From a virus: DNA of 64,000 nucleotides. The stretch is taken from UHGV virus genome UHGV-1440165, one strand, 5' to 3'. Position numbers: made by a program. Shown here piece by piece: positions 39,001-42,000 of the stretch (positions within the stretch are counted from its first letter, which is position 1; the number at the start of each line of letters is the position of its first letter).

Positions 39001-42000
39001 CGTGGGCTACCGTGATGACCAGAGTGCGATCGCCGTGGGTGCCTCCACTCGCATCAGCCAGAACACCGTGGGTAAACTGTCTGTATCAGCAGATACCCAA
39101 AGTGGTTACACTGTAGGCGCAGGTATCTCCTACGGCTGGTGAAGGGTTTTTATCAAGGGTGTTATGACACCCTTTTATTAAAAATCTTTAAAATAAGTTT
39201 TGTTTCAATAAGATATACGGTTTATAGTTATTACATAGAAGGGTGCCCTTGAGGGCATGCCAAATAATTTTGATGGTGTAATTCAGCGGTAGAATGGTCG
39301 GCTGTTAACCGACTCGTCGCAGGTTCAAATCCTGCCACCATCGCCAGACAATGGGTGTGAACGAAAGTGAATAGGCACGAAGTACGCGACCGACAAGCTC
39401 TTGAAGCGACGTCCAATAGCCGAACGGAATCCGAAGACGACGATAGTAACGCCCACCAAATTCAGAGTGTAGAGGCTACAGTAGTGCGCACCTCACGGGT
39501 CACTACACCGGACACTCTGATACAAATCTGCCGCTGCGTGGATTAGCTGAGGAAGGATGGCCGATGTCCTCGAGCGTGGCCCAGCACGTAGCGGTAGACC
39601 AAACACAGTAAGCGTTGCAGCCAGCTGTGTAAAAATGGGGTGACTCCACATCGGAAACGATGCCCCAACTTCCAGAAATGGTCGGGCGTGAAGCCTGTAA
39701 AGTTCCAGGAGATCGAACCAGAAGGCACTGGTGCCAGTTAACCAATCGGCGCTGAGAAGCGCGGGGAGTTGGGCTACGGCAGATCAAATGCACAATCGGG
39801 TGTGAAGCCCGTCCTTATTTCGCGGGACCATAGGGGTTGGCCAGTGGCTGACTGATCATCGGCGACGATCACTGGACAGGTTCGAATCCTGCTCTCCCGC
39901 TCCAAATTGGAAGGTTGCCCGAGAGGTTTAAGGGACTCGACTGCTAATCGAGTGGGGCTTTTAGCCCCCGAAGGTTCGAATCCTTCACCTTCCGCCAAAT
40001 TGCTTCATAGCTCAGCAGGTAGAGCGCAGGAGAGCTTCGGAAGAACAAGGTGCCTGTGGTCACTGGTTCGAATCCAGTTGAAGCAACCAAATTTGCGATC
40101 ATCGCGGAAATCCCAGACGCGCTCTCTCATAGGGCAGTACCAGTGCAAAGTGTGTAGTCTTTCCACCCATCCTCATCGATGTGGTATAGCCGGATAAGGA
40201 TATCCGGCTTTCTTTTGTCCATTATAAATACACCTGAACTTGTACAGGAGGTGTATCATGGCAACAGCCAAGTTTACTCTGGATGCAAGTACATGGACGC
40301 AAGTCTCAGATGGCACATCATTGAAAACAATACAAGTGACTCAGGGTTCTGTGTATTTGTGTGATAACCCAACCACGCCGAGTGCTTCCTCTCCGGCTCA
40401 TACTCTCTATCAAGGTAATATCGTTGTACTCACCCCGCCGACTGTTGGATGGGTTAAGGGCACGTCTTCTACTTCCGTTGTCATCGTGTCCTAGGGGGAG
40501 CCATGGCCATTCTATTGTCTCCTTACCTGGGCAACATGCTACAGACACACCGCATTAAAGTTGAAGTGAGGTTCTCCGGGCTTACTGCGGCCTTACCAGC
40601 TGGTGCAACAGGGGTTGACCTCTTGACATTGTTGGATGGCAAAACACCGCATCCTTCGTCTGTCACCGGGTTAGCTCCTTTCTTCAAATTGTCTGATCAT
40701 AAGTTCCATGCGTTTCCCGTAGATTCCATCTTGCCTGTCAAGGTGAACATCATCGGAACATGGTCTGGTTCAACTTCTAACAGGACAATGTTGCTGGACT
40801 TTGTCGGCTCAACAGGCAACCAGTTGTCTAAGAGCCGTGACTCCAGCCTGCCACCCCCAGACGTTCTCTCTTTCATCACGTTCTTCAGTGTTGACAAGGC
40901 AGGGAACCTCGCAACCAACGGGGCGCAGATGAAGCTGTACTCTTATGGTGGTGACTTCACCATTAATGAGATCGTTCTGATCGCAGAGCAGGTGGTTCCT
41001 CTCTACATGAGCACCATCTAATTTGTTCAACAACCAATAGGGGTTTAAAATTTAACCGTTAACCCCTATCATTGATTTGAGGATACACCAATGCGTAATG
41101 TTTCTATCTGGGAATTGAATGAAGTTATTTCTCAAGACATCCCCCCGTTTGTCAGGCTCTTCCAGTACAAAGGCGTGAAGCGCACTCTGAATGAGTTCCT
41201 GTCGCCTGTTTACGTCTACCGCGATGGTGGGTTCTTCCGCCGGGATAAAAACATCCCGAACCTCGGCATGAAGTTTGATATCGCAGTCAAAGGCCAGGTT
41301 GTTCTGATGGGCTACGGTAGTATCGAACAAGTGGAGAAAGGTTCCGGCGCACCGCTCCAGATCTTCTCTTCTTTTGAGCAAGCCGTTCACTGGCTGATCA
41401 GAAACGGATATGATTTCTATGGCGAAGAAAGCGCCAATTGGCGTCGTCGCAAGGTCAAGTCTGTTGATCTGGTAGATTTGAATCTGAAGTATCAGGCCAT
41501 TGCTCGTGAGTACGAAAAGAACCTACCAAAGCCTGTTACTGTGGTGGGCAACAAATACGTCCCTGACGCCCAATCTCACGGCGTGAAGATTGTTCCGGTT
41601 TGCGAAGATATTGGGCTGACACAGGCGATTAAACCACCAGTGCCGCCTACCCCTCCGGCTGGTCGTGTTCTGAATGATCAGGGTGCTCCTGTTAAGGCGA
41701 AGAAATCTACTTTCATGGATAACATGATGAAGTTCCTTCGTTTATTCAAGAAATAAGCCGAGATCCTCCTTTTCTATACTCCTGTAGATACGCTATGATA
41801 AGCCAATGTCTACAGGAGAAATAGAATGAACGATACACAAATCGAAGGTGTGATCTCCCAACACCACGACAAGTCAATATTCAACACCCTATCCCTCGAC
41901 CGCAACCTGGTCCATTGGGAAGATTATCTCTACAAGCACACCCCGTGCGAACTCGTTGCCAACCCCGAAACCAATCAGCAGGTCTGGTTCAAACGTGAAG

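What the first reader, a model, noticed from the sequence alone, without database searches (positions are those of the whole stretch)
39347..40089. Two non-canonical tRNA-like genes next to tRNA-Ser, preceded by a 470-nt ORF-free spacer
Element 40001-40089 has a perfect 7-bp acceptor stem, canonical D- and T-arms and an encoded CCA, but the anticodon region is a 5-bp stem (GCAGG/CCTGT) closing a 22-nt loop; I tested every 5/7/5 window and none folds. Element 39822-39904 has a T-arm and CCA end but no regular D or anticodon arm. Both abut a textbook tRNA-Ser(GCT). They could be tRNAs with small insertions, decoy or regulatory tRNA-like RNAs, or decaying pseudogenes. The upstream 39347-39821 stretch is also ORF-free and GC-rich.
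Basis: seen in the sequence. Interest (0 to 1): 0.6.

Follow-up and report, generated by a model that had tools for sequence, protein, structure and literature searches.

The report
Phage operon of odd tRNA-like RNAs
This stretch of an Ackermannviridae phage genome is a single RNA operon in which true tRNAs alternate with conserved non-tRNA structured RNAs, a decaying tRNA-Ile-like gene, and a tRNA whose anticodon arm has been swapped for a 32-nt hairpin that also occurs in unrelated phages next to a tmRNA-tag-like RNA.

Summary
The sequence features are real, but one was misread. Element 40001-40089 is a well-formed tRNA body (Rfam tRNA 54 bits) with a 22-nt anticodon loop. It has the body of the normal tRNA-Ile(GAU) found at the same locus in phage Mooltan, with only the anticodon arm replaced. 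The same arm, with an invariant AGAACAAGGUG, sits on at least three different cloverleaf scaffolds in Ackermannviridae, N4-like phages, phage EP_H11, P22-like phages, siphophages and E. coli prophages. Stems are kept by compensatory changes, so it is not a decaying pseudogene and not an intron-bearing tRNA.

It is a non-canonical tRNA-Ile-like gene confined to Ackermannviridae. It is decaying: the window copy lacks one acceptor base, and 27 of 74 relatives carry a 37-nt deletion.

The 475-nt "spacer" is four or five conserved structured RNA modules. They are reordered between genera, two are shared with N4-like phages, and they are punctuated by CCA-AAU junctions. They are 89-96% conserved, against 72-77% for flanking genes.

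Function is unknown. My best guess is that these are tRNA-scaffolded or tRNA-end-mimicking small RNAs released by the host tRNA-processing enzymes.

A tmRNA-tag-like RNA (ANDNAYLAVA*) lies at 36.3 kb.

The parts
39200..39228 (+). Tentative promoter of the RNA operon (TTGTTT, 17 nt, TATAGT)
   Evidence: Read from the sequence. The same -10 hexamer TATAGT occurs in the promoter-like site 36169-36196 found by the scan. This site itself fell below the scanner's -35 threshold, so it is inferred only.
39272..39346 (+). tRNA-Asn(GUU), canonical
   Evidence: ARAGORN; Rfam tRNA 68.9 bits.
39353..39458 (+). Module A: structured RNA closed by GGGTGT/ACGCCC and followed by ACCA-AAT
   Evidence: 15 distinct variants in Ackermannviridae. 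The closing helix stays paired through G-U-type changes only. Absent from some Kuttervirus genomes, where hits start at spacer position 111.
39462..39520 (+). Module B: 59-nt RNA with a 9-bp closing helix TCAGAGTGT/ACACTCTGA
   Evidence: Also present in the tRNA clusters of N4-like phages Ea9-2 and FSL SP-076 and of contig L034. The consensus fold has 19 pairs, 4 of them with changes on both sides. It lies in a different position relative to module C in Taipeivirus.
39527..39601 (+). Module C: 14-bp closing helix, a 44-nt conserved core (GATTAGCTG...GCGTGGCCCAG), then CCA
   Evidence: The closing helix is kept with three unrelated sequences, in Kuttervirus/Agtrevirus/Limestonevirus, in Taipeivirus and in phage G17. 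The inner helix GAGGA/TCCTC becomes GTGGA/TCCAC in G17.
39603..39815 (+). Module D (with E): about 210-nt multi-hairpin RNA ending in the hairpin CGGGTGTGAAGCCCG
   Evidence: 17 sequences aligned, 57 consensus pairs, 2 covarying. One hairpin loop alternates between GAGA-type and UUCG. There are 1- and 2-nt indels. The inner part 39632-39777 is absent in Marshall and LIMEstone1.
39822..39904 (+). tRNA-like 1: degenerate, non-canonical tRNA-Ile(GAU)-like gene
   Evidence: Anticodon arm GCTGA/CTGATCA/TCGGC. One-nt deletion in the 5' acceptor strand relative to all relatives. Orthologues are called tRNA-Ile(gat) by ARAGORN, but the best Rfam match is tRNA-Sec at 23 bits, below threshold. 27 of 74 records keep only the first 37 nt.
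39909..39997 (+). tRNA-Ser(GCU), canonical class II tRNA
   Evidence: ARAGORN; Rfam 56 bits; identical in all eight aligned relatives that carry it.
40001..40089 (+). tRNA-like 2: tRNA-Ile body carrying a foreign arm in place of the anticodon arm
   Evidence: Rfam tRNA 54.4 bits. Cloverleaf 97.6% paired over 8 distinct variants from several phage families, with 5 of 7 acceptor pairs changed on both sides. Same body and same 3' flank as the normal tRNA-Ile(GAU) of Mooltan.
40026..40057 (+). The conserved arm: stem (G)CAGG/CCTG(T) and 22-nt loop AGAGCTTCGGAAGAACAAGGTG
   Evidence: 34 nt are 100% identical in HK620, HK633, swi2 and Klebsiella phage ZCKp20p. Found in 50 IMG/VR loci on three scaffold types. 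AGAACAAGGTG is the same in every copy recovered, including the EP_H11 and HK2 copies found by BLAST rather than by the pattern.
40090..40216 (+). 3' trailer and intrinsic terminator (stem 40188-40209, then a T-run)
   Evidence: Terminator scan. The trailer folds with z = -3.0 against shuffles. 40090-40149 is not conserved in Kuttervirus.
36340..36372 (+). Outside the finding: tmRNA-tag-like reading frame GCA...TAA (ANDNAYLAVA*), within an unannotated RNA of roughly 36204-36660
   Evidence: Found through the arm's homologues. Rfam tmRNA_permuted 23.4 bits, below threshold.

Best explanation
Window 39.27-40.22 kb is one polycistronic RNA operon of an Agtrevirus-type Ackermannviridae phage. It is bounded by a probable promoter and a strong terminator. 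It encodes, head to tail: tRNA-Asn, four or five non-tRNA structured RNA modules (the so-called spacer), a degenerate tRNA-Ile-like gene, tRNA-Ser, and a tRNA-scaffolded RNA.

The units are separated by (N)CCA-AAU(U)-type junctions. Several non-tRNA modules end in a long closing helix followed by ACCA. I infer that the host tRNA-maturation enzymes cut the precursor into individual stable small RNAs: RNase P at the 5' side of each helix, and RNase E plus 3' exonucleases at the CCA-AAUU junctions.

Element 2 (40001-40089) was made by precisely replacing the anticodon stem-loop of a phage tRNA-Ile(GAU) with a 32-nt hairpin. The tRNA body supplies processing, the CCA end and stability. The hairpin loop, whose 3' half AGAACAAGGUG is invariant, is the working part and binds a partner that is still unknown. 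The RNA cannot decode and is probably not charged by IleRS, because the anticodon is gone.

Element 1 (39822-39904) is a lineage-restricted, non-canonical tRNA-Ile(GAU)-like gene that is being lost.

Shown: the anatomy, the homologies, the stem conservation and the modularity. Inferred: transcription as one unit, the processing route, and any function.
For: Operon frame. All units lie on the + strand with no plausible ORF. There is a strong terminator at 40188-40216. Junction sequences were read directly.

Selective constraint. The RNA cluster is 89-96% identical between the window and Kuttervirus phages. The adjacent protein genes are 72-77% identical, and the upstream 444-aa gene is not alignable.

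Modules.
- Modules B and C occur separately in Schitoviridae RNA clusters.
- Their order is changed in Taipeivirus, and parts are absent in some genomes.
- Module C's 14-bp helix is preserved with three unrelated sequences.
- Modules B and D show compensatory changes and swaps between stable tetraloops.
- tRNA-Tyr sits as a cassette exactly at the C/D junction in Det7 and P46FS4.

Element 2.
- Rfam tRNA scores it 54 bits with a 22-nt insert.
- Its body and 3' flank are identical to the normal tRNA-Ile(GAU) of Mooltan.
- The arm is 100% identical over 34 nt in unrelated phages.
- The arm is carried on three scaffolds: a tRNA-Ile-like TGCTTCA body, a GYCCACT body, and the HK620-type cloverleaf.
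- Compensatory changes occur in the acceptor helices of both scaffold families.
- All differences between Agtrevirus and Kuttervirus copies fall in loops or unpaired positions.

Element 1..

Earlier record. The ΦSH19 genome paper noted a '5 Kb non-coding region' and an 'undetermined tRNA' shared with Vi01 (PMC3220722). Det7 annotates it as a pseudo-tRNA with a possible 15-bp intron.
Against: - I found no expression, processing or aminoacylation data.
- The promoter is only a weak consensus match.
- High identity among Ackermannviridae could partly reflect recent exchange rather than selection. The number of independent lineages behind each covariation is small (2-3).
- The variable positions inside the 22-nt loop do not covary, so the loop has no supported internal structure and no identified partner. 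Its complementarity to the phage tag-RNA is no better than that of shuffled loops.
- Element 2 evolves faster than tRNA-Ser (about 89% versus 100% identity).
- A subset of Kuttervirus copies encode ATCA instead of ACCA at the 3' end.
- Module B and the D/E end are not followed by CCA.
- The single-sequence fold of the spacer is only modestly better than shuffles (z = -2.3).
Confidence: 0.55

Rival explanations
1. Both elements and the spacer are junk: dead tRNA genes and their debris, carried along in a tRNA cluster by linkage and repeatedly copied between phages by recombination.
For: - Element 1 is clearly decaying: a private 1-nt deletion, T-stem mismatches, and a 37-nt deletion in 27 of 74 records.
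- The cluster is mosaic, with frequent gain and loss of cassettes.
- Allotria's module C helix has three mismatches that look recombinant.
- Some copies of element 2 lack an encoded CCA.
Against: - Element 2 keeps 97.6% of its cloverleaf pairs across families, with compensatory acceptor changes.
- The arm is identical in unrelated phages on different scaffolds.
- Module C keeps a 14-bp helix with three unrelated sequences.
- The cluster is far more conserved than the neighbouring genes.
Confidence: 0.15
2. Element 2 is a genuine decoding tRNA with a short intron (the 'possible 15-bp intron' of the Det7 annotation; others call it tRNA-Pro, tRNA-Leu or tRNA-Ile). The intron is removed to give a normal anticodon loop.
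For: The tRNA body is perfect and scores above the Rfam threshold. Annotators have assigned it as Pro, Leu or 'OTHER with intron'.
Against: - No 15-nt excision leaves U33 (read by hand).
- Fifteen nucleotides cannot self-splice, and there is no group I intron match.
- To my knowledge, enterobacteria have no protein-based tRNA splicing.
- The same arm occurs on a non-tRNA scaffold (HK620 type) where no anticodon reading is possible.
- The most conserved part is the 3' half of the supposed intron.
Confidence: 0.03
3. Element 2 is the tRNA-like partner of the phage's tmRNA-tag-like RNA. The two act together in, or against, host trans-translation as a split tmRNA-like system or an SmpB/ribosome decoy.
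For: - In at least 24 phage or prophage loci the arm-bearing cloverleaf lies a fixed 257-269 nt downstream of a tag-like frame, within one roughly 360-nt unit.
- In the N4-like contig L020 the two are 254 nt apart.
- The window and Det7 carry both, 2.3-3.7 kb apart.
- The tag frames are SsrA-like (AN[DE][DEN]xxL[AM][VA]A*), always 10 codons, and differ by synonymous or conservative changes. HK620 has no start codon in this frame.
- A TLD-only RNA from phage DS6A is reported to inhibit tmRNA (PMC4131195).
Against: - There is no G3-U70 alanine identity pair in either scaffold.
- RNase P would be expected to separate the cloverleaf from the upstream tag RNA.
- The tag RNA occurs in 725 phage records, many of which (for example Felixounavirus) show no arm hit.
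- Loop-to-tag-RNA complementarity is not above chance.
- Rfam tmRNA models score below threshold.
- Nucleotide similarity to E. coli ssrA is not above shuffles.
Confidence: 0.12
4. The tRNA-like RNAs and the ACCA-ended helices are decoys or sponges for host defences or enzymes that act on tRNAs, such as anticodon nucleases or toxins that modify the CCA end.
For: - There are several RNAs that keep tRNA ends and elbows but lack a usable anticodon.
- They are spread by horizontal transfer among virulent and temperate enterobacterial phages.
- Phage tRNAs are known to counter tRNA-cleaving defences, for example PARIS (PMC11464382; listed, title and abstract only).
Against: There is no direct evidence. 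The invariant loop sequence does not resemble any anticodon loop. Nothing links these phages to particular defence systems.
Confidence: 0.12

Closest known systems
Phage tRNA gene clusters transcribed as polycistronic precursors, including the T4 tRNA region with its two stable non-tRNA RNAs (species 1 and 2, rnaC/rnaD). From my own knowledge.
   Same: tRNAs and non-tRNA stable RNAs are interleaved in one unit. The units have CCA-type ends, maturation would depend on host RNase P and 3' trimming, and the function of the extra RNAs is unknown.
   Different: No sequence similarity to T4-like phages was found. The modules here are shared among Ackermannviridae and Schitoviridae, and the arm is also shared with lambdoid phages. 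One unit is a tRNA with a replaced anticodon arm.
Engineered 'tRNA scaffold' RNAs, in which the anticodon stem-loop is replaced by an RNA of interest so that the chimera is processed and stabilised like a tRNA. From my own knowledge (Ponchon and Dardel).
   Same: Element 2 has exactly this architecture. The acceptor, D and T arms are intact, and the anticodon arm is precisely replaced.
   Different: Element 2 is natural. The inserted hairpin is a conserved phage element of unknown function, and processing has not been shown.
tmRNA and tmRNA-derived tRNA-like-domain-only RNAs (for example the mycobacteriophage DS6A TLD; PMC4131195)
   Same: These are phage-encoded tRNA mimics that cannot decode. 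Element 2's arm is associated with an SsrA-like tag frame.
   Different: There is no G3-U70 pair. A full D arm and a closed arm stand where helix P2 would emerge in tmRNA. ARAGORN finds no tmRNA, and Rfam scores are below threshold.
tRNA pseudogenes
   Same: Element 1 shows a frame-breaking indel in a stem, stem mismatches and large deletions in relatives.
   Different: Element 2 and the spacer modules show the opposite pattern: stems are maintained by compensatory change.
Large ornate phage-associated RNAs found near tRNA genes (GOLLD, ROOL)
   Same: These are GC-rich, ORF-free, multi-hairpin RNAs next to phage tRNA genes.
   Different: There is no Rfam match even at E of 10 or less. The 475 nt behave as independent small cassettes that are reordered and lost separately.

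Membership tests
Canonical tRNA (Rfam RF00005 cloverleaf) | 7-bp acceptor stem with D and T arms, and a score above the family threshold | tested here: met
   Element 2 scores 54.4 bits against a gathering score of 29. All four helices are 90-100% paired in 8 variants.
Canonical tRNA (Rfam RF00005 cloverleaf) | 7-nt anticodon loop with U33 and a purine at position 37 (element 2) | tested here: not met
   The loop is 22 nt. ARAGORN gives 'tRNA-???'. No 15-nt excision restores U33 (by hand).
Canonical tRNA (Rfam RF00005 cloverleaf) | Cloverleaf and threshold score for element 1 (39822-39904) | tested here: not met
   No tRNA hit in the window at E of 10 or less, and ARAGORN is silent. The intact orthologue also fails the tRNA model; its best match is tRNA-Sec at 23.2 bits against a threshold of 47. 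The loop CUGAUCA has U33 but C37, the D stem has a mismatch, and the variable region is 12 nt without a hairpin.
Intron-containing tRNA | An intron that is a group I ribozyme or a splice-competent insert at position 37/38, leaving a canonical anticodon loop | tested here: not met
   No group I intron match. No canonical loop results after any 15-nt excision. The same 'insert' is conserved on a non-tRNA scaffold.
tRNA-Sec | UCA anticodon, 13-bp acceptor/T stack, long variable arm, and a family-level score | tested here: not met
   Element 1 scores 15.4 bits in the window and 23.2 bits in allotria, against a threshold of 47. The anticodon position reads GAU.
tmRNA (tRNA-like domain) | G3-U70 alanine identity pair, T arm, and helix P2 in place of the anticodon arm, physically joined to the tag reading frame | tested here: not met
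   Element 2 has C3-G70 and a closed arm. ARAGORN finds no tmRNA in the window. The tag frame is 3.7 kb away.
tmRNA (mRNA-like domain), for the RNA at about 36.3 kb | A tag frame starting at GCA without a start codon, an SsrA-like peptide, and the stop codon in a hairpin loop | tested here: inconclusive
   The peptide pattern, the constant length and the synonymous changes fit. HK620 has TAG eight codons upstream and no ATG, GTG or TTG in between. However, Rfam scores are 23-27 bits against a threshold of 47, nucleotide similarity to E. coli ssrA is not above shuffles, and no tRNA-like domain was identified.
Decaying tRNA pseudogene | Orthologues accumulate stem-breaking substitutions and indels | tested here: met
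   This holds for element 1 only: a 1-nt acceptor deletion in the window, three different bases at the first T-stem pair, and a 37-nt deletion in 27 of 74 records.
Decaying tRNA pseudogene | The same criterion applied to element 2 | tested here: not met
   97.6% of cells are paired. Changes are confined to loops or are compensated.
GOLLD / ROOL / other curated large RNAs (for the spacer) | A match to the family covariance model | tested here: not met
   No Rfam family matches 39347-39821 at E of 10 or less.
T4 species 1 / species 2 stable RNAs | Homology to rnaC/rnaD; processing out of a tRNA precursor | not testable with these tools
   No T4-like phage appears among the BLAST hits. Processing needs experiments. 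The resemblance is one of organisation and is drawn from memory.

The most novel reading that the evidence does not exclude
Enterobacterial phages of many families carry a previously unannotated RNA toolkit. It consists of an SsrA-tag-encoding RNA that lacks its own tRNA-like domain, plus a separately matured tRNA-scaffolded hairpin (element 2 here). Together these would hijack or disable host trans-translation. The 'spacer' modules would be further members of the same set of tRNA-end-mimicking effector RNAs.
Probability: 0.12. Interest if true: 0.9.

Novelty: new variant of a known kind. Interest (0 to 1): 0.62.

Why it matters
Ackermannviridae genome papers have listed an 'undetermined tRNA' and a roughly 5-kb non-coding region since 2011 without explaining them. 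This analysis reaches three results.

- The odd tRNA is a natural tRNA-scaffold chimera. Its inserted hairpin is a mobile, strongly conserved element shared by virulent and temperate enterobacterial phages and by E. coli prophages.
- The 'spacer' is a string of independent structured RNAs, some ending like tRNAs.
- These RNAs travel together with an SsrA-tag-like RNA that is present in hundreds of phage genomes and in 157 of 5426 complete E. coli genomes, and it is never annotated as an RNA gene; the only features listed under it are a few 'hypothetical protein' CDS calls.

If these RNAs are functional, phages use the host tRNA-processing pathway to make a family of non-decoding small RNAs. 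That opens a testable route into phage manipulation of translation, ribosome rescue or tRNA-directed defences. In practice, annotators should stop calling element 2 tRNA-Pro, tRNA-Leu or tRNA-Ile.

Tried and rejected
- **Known RNA families.** Rfam at gathering and at E of 10 or less over 39200-40260 found no family for the spacer. For element 1 it found only a weak tRNA-Sec match.
- **Whole spacer as one large RNA.** The single-sequence fold is only marginal (z = -2.3). Module shuffling argues against a single RNA.
- **tmRNA ending at 39904.** There is no matching 5' acceptor strand, and ARAGORN finds no tmRNA.
- **Internal structure of the 22-nt loop.** I considered a UUCG tetraloop, a 3-bp stem, a k-turn, and CsrA, Hfq or Shine-Dalgarno-like motifs. 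The variable positions do not covary, and the fold is no better than shuffles. I could not substantiate any of these.
- **Kissing interaction between the loop and the phage tag-RNA.** Duplex energies fall within the shuffle range. An 8-nt match to the hairpin after the tag in the window and in ZCKp20p is not conserved in HK620.
- **Similarity of the arm or the tag RNA to E. coli ssrA.** It is not above shuffles. The shared CAAGGUGC is a chance-level 8-mer.
- **Self-cleaving ribozymes** (HDV-like, hammerhead, pistol, hatchet, twister) as the identity of modules B and C. There is no Rfam support, and the topology does not fit.
- **IMG/VR scan for module B.** About half of the 25 hits were chance matches; true homologues were sorted out by eye.
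- **GTDB species representatives.** No copy of the arm was found.
- **Literature.** Searches for phage tmRNA-like RNAs or Kuttervirus transcriptomes found nothing relevant.
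Full report
**Origin and setting.** The window comes from an Ackermannviridae phage. The 1,061 bases around the finding are 95% identical to Salmonella phage SW16-7 (Agtrevirus), and 284 phage records match, nearly all of them Ackermannviridae. ARAGORN and Rfam agree on tRNA-Asn 39272-39346 and tRNA-Ser(GCU) 39909-39997, and on a tRNA-like object at 40001-40089. A strong intrinsic terminator follows at 40188-40216. A weak promoter-like site (TTGTTT, 17 nt, TATAGT) precedes tRNA-Asn. All units are on the + strand. 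The ΦSH19 genome paper already noted a '5 Kb non-coding region' holding the tRNA genes, and an 'undetermined tRNA' shared with Vi01 (PMC3220722). Det7 annotates the same object as a pseudo-tRNA with a possible 15-bp intron. Other records call it tRNA-Pro, tRNA-Leu or tRNA-OTHER.

It has a 7-bp acceptor stem, canonical D and T arms, and ACCA. The stem (G)CAGG/CCTG(T) closes a 22-nt loop. Rfam tRNA gives 54.4 bits with the loop treated as an insertion. None of the eight ways of removing 15 nt leaves a loop with U33, so there is no hidden canonical anticodon loop.

**Element 2: origin.** Some Kuttervirus genomes (Mooltan, GEC_vB_N6 and others) have an ordinary 76-nt tRNA-Ile(GAU) at this position. 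It has the same acceptor, D and T arms and the same 3' flank, and only the anticodon stem-loop differs. The same tRNA-Ile body also occurs in the N4-like phages Ea9-2 and FSL SP-076. Element 2 is therefore a tRNA-Ile whose anticodon arm was precisely replaced.

**Element 2: the arm is a shared module.** Thirty-four nucleotides of the arm are 100% identical in HK620 and HK633 (P22-like), in swi2, and in Klebsiella siphophages. An IMG/VR scan found the arm in 50 loci. It sits on three scaffolds:
- the TGCTTCA tRNA-Ile-like body, in Ackermannviridae and in the 72-kb N4-like contig L020;
- a GYCCACT tRNA body, in L047, EP_H11 and HK2;
- an HK620-type cloverleaf with acceptor-like helix TGTGGTG/CACCACA, a D-like hairpin GCGCA/TGCGC and a T-like hairpin GCCGG/CCGGC.

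Across eight distinct tRNA-bodied variants, 97.6% of cloverleaf cells are paired and five of seven acceptor pairs change on both sides. In the HK620-type scaffold, four acceptor-helix pairs change on both sides. Within the loop, AGAACAAGGUG never varies in any copy recovered. The few variable positions do not covary. This pattern is that of a selected, transferable RNA module mounted on a tRNA-like carrier. It is not the pattern of an intron or of decay.

The sequence contains GCTGA-CTGATCA-TCGGC, which is a 5-bp stem with one G-U pair and a 7-nt loop with anticodon GAU. All eight aligned relatives read GCGGGAG at the 5' end, giving a perfect 7-bp acceptor stem. The window lacks one G there. 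ARAGORN calls the orthologues tRNA-Ile(gat), and several GenBank records do the same.

**Element 1: non-canonical and decaying.** Even the intact form is non-canonical:
- position 37 is C;
- the D stem has a mismatch;
- there is a 12-nt variable region without a hairpin;
- the acceptor and T helices stack to 13 bp;
- it fails the Rfam tRNA model, and its best match is tRNA-Sec at 23 bits, below threshold.

The element exists only in Ackermannviridae (74 records). Twenty-seven of those keep only the first 37 nt, which is the Det7-type internal deletion. The first T-stem pair is A-U in Kuttervirus but A-C, A-A and A-C in the three Agtrevirus-type sequences. The element is replaced or absent in S118, Mooltan and A221. 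I read it as a lineage-specific tRNA-Ile-like gene under relaxed constraint, and probably dead in this window.

**The 'spacer' (39347-39821) is not a spacer.** BLAST block maps show it is built from cassettes: A (39353-39458), B (39462-39520), C (39527-39601) and D/E (39603-39815).
- In Taipeivirus the order is A, C, an extra segment, B, D.
- A is missing in some Kuttervirus genomes.
- The inner part of D is missing in Marshall and LIMEstone1.
- tRNA-Tyr is inserted exactly at the C/D junction in Det7 and P46FS4.
- B occurs in the tRNA clusters of N4-like phages. In Ea9-2 it lies directly after tRNA-Ile, and it is also in FSL SP-076 and L034. Its 9-bp closing helix carries a C-G to U-A change, and an inner G-C pair becomes C-G.
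- C has a 14-bp closing helix whose sequence is entirely different in Kuttervirus/Agtrevirus/Limestonevirus, in Taipeivirus and in phage G17, while the 44-nt core is conserved. Its inner helix GAGGA/UCCUC becomes GUGGA/UCCAC in G17.
- D is almost invariant across three genera. It has two covarying pairs and a hairpin whose loop switches between GAGA-type and UUCG. Its 1- and 2-nt indels rule out coding.

Between the window and Kuttervirus the RNA cluster is 89-96% identical. The flanking genes are 72-77% identical, and the upstream 444-aa gene has no counterpart. No Rfam family matches the spacer.

**Punctuation and inferred mechanism.** Unit boundaries, read, run as follows:
- ...CCA-GACAAU-[A]
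- [A]-ACCA-AAU-[B]
- [B]-UACAAA-[C]
- [C]-(A)CCA-A-[D]
- [D]-UCCUUAUUUC-[tRNA-like 1]
- ...UCCA-AAUU-[tRNA-Ser]
- ...GCCA-AAU-[tRNA-like 2]
- ...ACCA-AAUUU

Modules A and C are long helices followed by ACCA, which resembles an acceptor/T minihelix with a tRNA 3' end. In E. coli, polycistronic tRNA precursors are separated by RNase E cuts just 3' of CCA and by RNase P at the 5' ends (established knowledge; see also PMC4176162, listed, title and abstract only). From this I infer that the operon is cut into separate small RNAs by the host tRNA-maturation enzymes. I also infer that element 2 works like an engineered tRNA scaffold, in which the body gives processing and stability and the hairpin is the effector. 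Element 2 cannot decode. Because the anticodon is a major IleRS determinant (from my own knowledge), it is probably not charged. What the arm binds is unknown. I tested internal structure, pairing with the phage tag-RNA, and similarity to E. coli ssrA, and none rose above chance.

**Link to a tmRNA-tag-like RNA.** In HK620, ZCKp20p, swi2 and at least 20 further IMG/VR loci, the arm-bearing cloverleaf lies 257-269 nt downstream of a reading frame that starts at GCA. That frame encodes ANEEMYLAVA* or ANDDVVLMAA*. G17 encodes ANEEAYLMVA*, Det7 ANDNTFLAVA*, and the window itself ANDNAYLAVA* at 36340-36372.
- For the resemblance: the frame is always ten codons plus TAA. It differs by synonymous or conservative changes. 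HK620 has no start codon, with TAG eight codons upstream. The stop codon sits in a hairpin loop. The peptide resembles the E. coli SsrA tag ANDENYALAA.
- Against it: Rfam tmRNA models align the frame only below threshold, at 23-27 bits against 47. ARAGORN finds no tmRNA at these frames in any of these loci; its one tmRNA call, in swi2 (L050 1872-2246), is downstream of the frame, overlaps tRNA-Met and carries an unrelated tag. No tRNA-like domain with G3-U70 was found. Nucleotide similarity to ssrA is not significant.

The tag region occurs in 725 phage records and the unit in 157 of 5426 complete E. coli genomes. It is never annotated as an RNA gene there; most listed hits have no feature and a few lie under 'hypothetical protein' CDS calls. 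Many carriers lack the arm, so the two are associated but not obligatorily linked. The idea that element 2 partners this RNA is the most novel reading not excluded. I give it about 12%.

**Verdict.** The features are real and non-random. Element 2 belongs to an unrecognised, cross-family class of tRNA-scaffolded phage RNAs. Element 1 is a decaying non-canonical tRNA-Ile-like gene. The 'spacer' is a set of conserved modular RNAs. The element was already annotated as an 'undetermined' or 'pseudo' tRNA. What is new is its origin by arm replacement, the mobility and conservation of the arm, the modular RNAs, and the association with a tag-encoding RNA. No function has been demonstrated.

Noticed in passing
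window 36204-36660 (tag frame 36340-36372; promoter-like site 36169-36196): An unannotated RNA with an SsrA-like tag frame (GCA AAT GAT AAC GCT TAT CTG GCA GTA GCT TAA = ANDNAYLAVA*). Homologous units occur in 725 phage records (Ackermannviridae, Felixounavirus, N4-like, P22-like, siphophages, a short match in P1) and in 157 of 5426 E. coli genomes, and none is annotated as an RNA gene (no feature, or a 'hypothetical protein' CDS). Rfam tmRNA models score below threshold, and no tRNA-like domain was identified.
   Followed up: partly
window 35270-37497: About 2.2 kb with no ORF over 107 aa, upstream of tRNA-Met and tRNA-Arg. It contains further uncalled tRNA-like objects. One is 35928-36070, with acceptor-like CGCGGTG/CACCGCG, T arm GTCGG-TTAGATT-CCGAC and a large insert. 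Another is 36088-36160, with GGTGAGG/CCTCGCC and T arm GTGTGG-TTCGATT-CCACAC.
   Followed up: no
window 37007-37118: Sub-threshold match to the prophage sRNA family STnc100 (34.8 bits against a threshold of 47; E = 2.7e-5). Phage G17 has a similar weak match (L006 2081-2205). STnc100 and PasD are prophage-associated sRNAs (bioRxiv 10.64898/2026.05.13.724894).
   Followed up: no
L051 (Mooltan) 1583-1745; the same region in Det7, allotria and S118, downstream of tRNA-like 2: Kuttervirus phages carry a roughly 165-nt RNA here, with acceptor-like helix GAGTGTG/CGCACTC, T arm TCGGG-TTCGATT-CCCGA and a large central insert. This is a tmRNA-like architecture without an obvious tag frame. It is absent from the window, whose trailer 40090-40187 is different.
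   Followed up: no
L050 (swi2) about 1895-1975, the variable domain of the HK620-type RNA: In swi2 the hypervariable domain of the tag RNA is itself tRNA-like. It has a 7-bp helix GAGCATT/AAGTGCTC next to T arm GCGG-TTCGACT-CCGC, and it contains GATTAGCT, the motif that opens the core of module C.
   Followed up: no
L001 (Det7) 2828-2913; L010 (P46FS4) 1458-1541: tRNA-Tyr(GUA) is inserted exactly at the module C/D junction. The junction sequence ACCAAAC is present on both sides, which looks like cassette insertion at a punctuation site.
   Followed up: partly
window 39683-39697 and 39797-39811: Two similar hairpins, CGGGY-GUGAA-GCCYG, with a GNRNA-type pentaloop. A related GGGU-GAGAA-GCCC hairpin sits just before tRNA-Tyr in Ea9-2 (L004 about 1657-1669). 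The second copy lies immediately upstream of tRNA-like 1, and the scan flags it as terminator-like.
   Followed up: no
window 37808-39142: A 444-aa ORF splits the RNA region into two clusters. SW16-7 annotates its counterpart as 'recognition of host receptor'. It has no counterpart at this position in the Kuttervirus loci examined.
   Followed up: no
phage records OR844942.1 (Enterococcus phage Efm 3-10, 111 kb) and MN871475.1 (Pseudomonas phage Pa-sanjiao, 158 kb): These records carry 94% and 89% matches to this Ackermannviridae RNA cluster despite their host labels. The likely causes are mislabelling, contamination or chimeric assembly.
   Followed up: no
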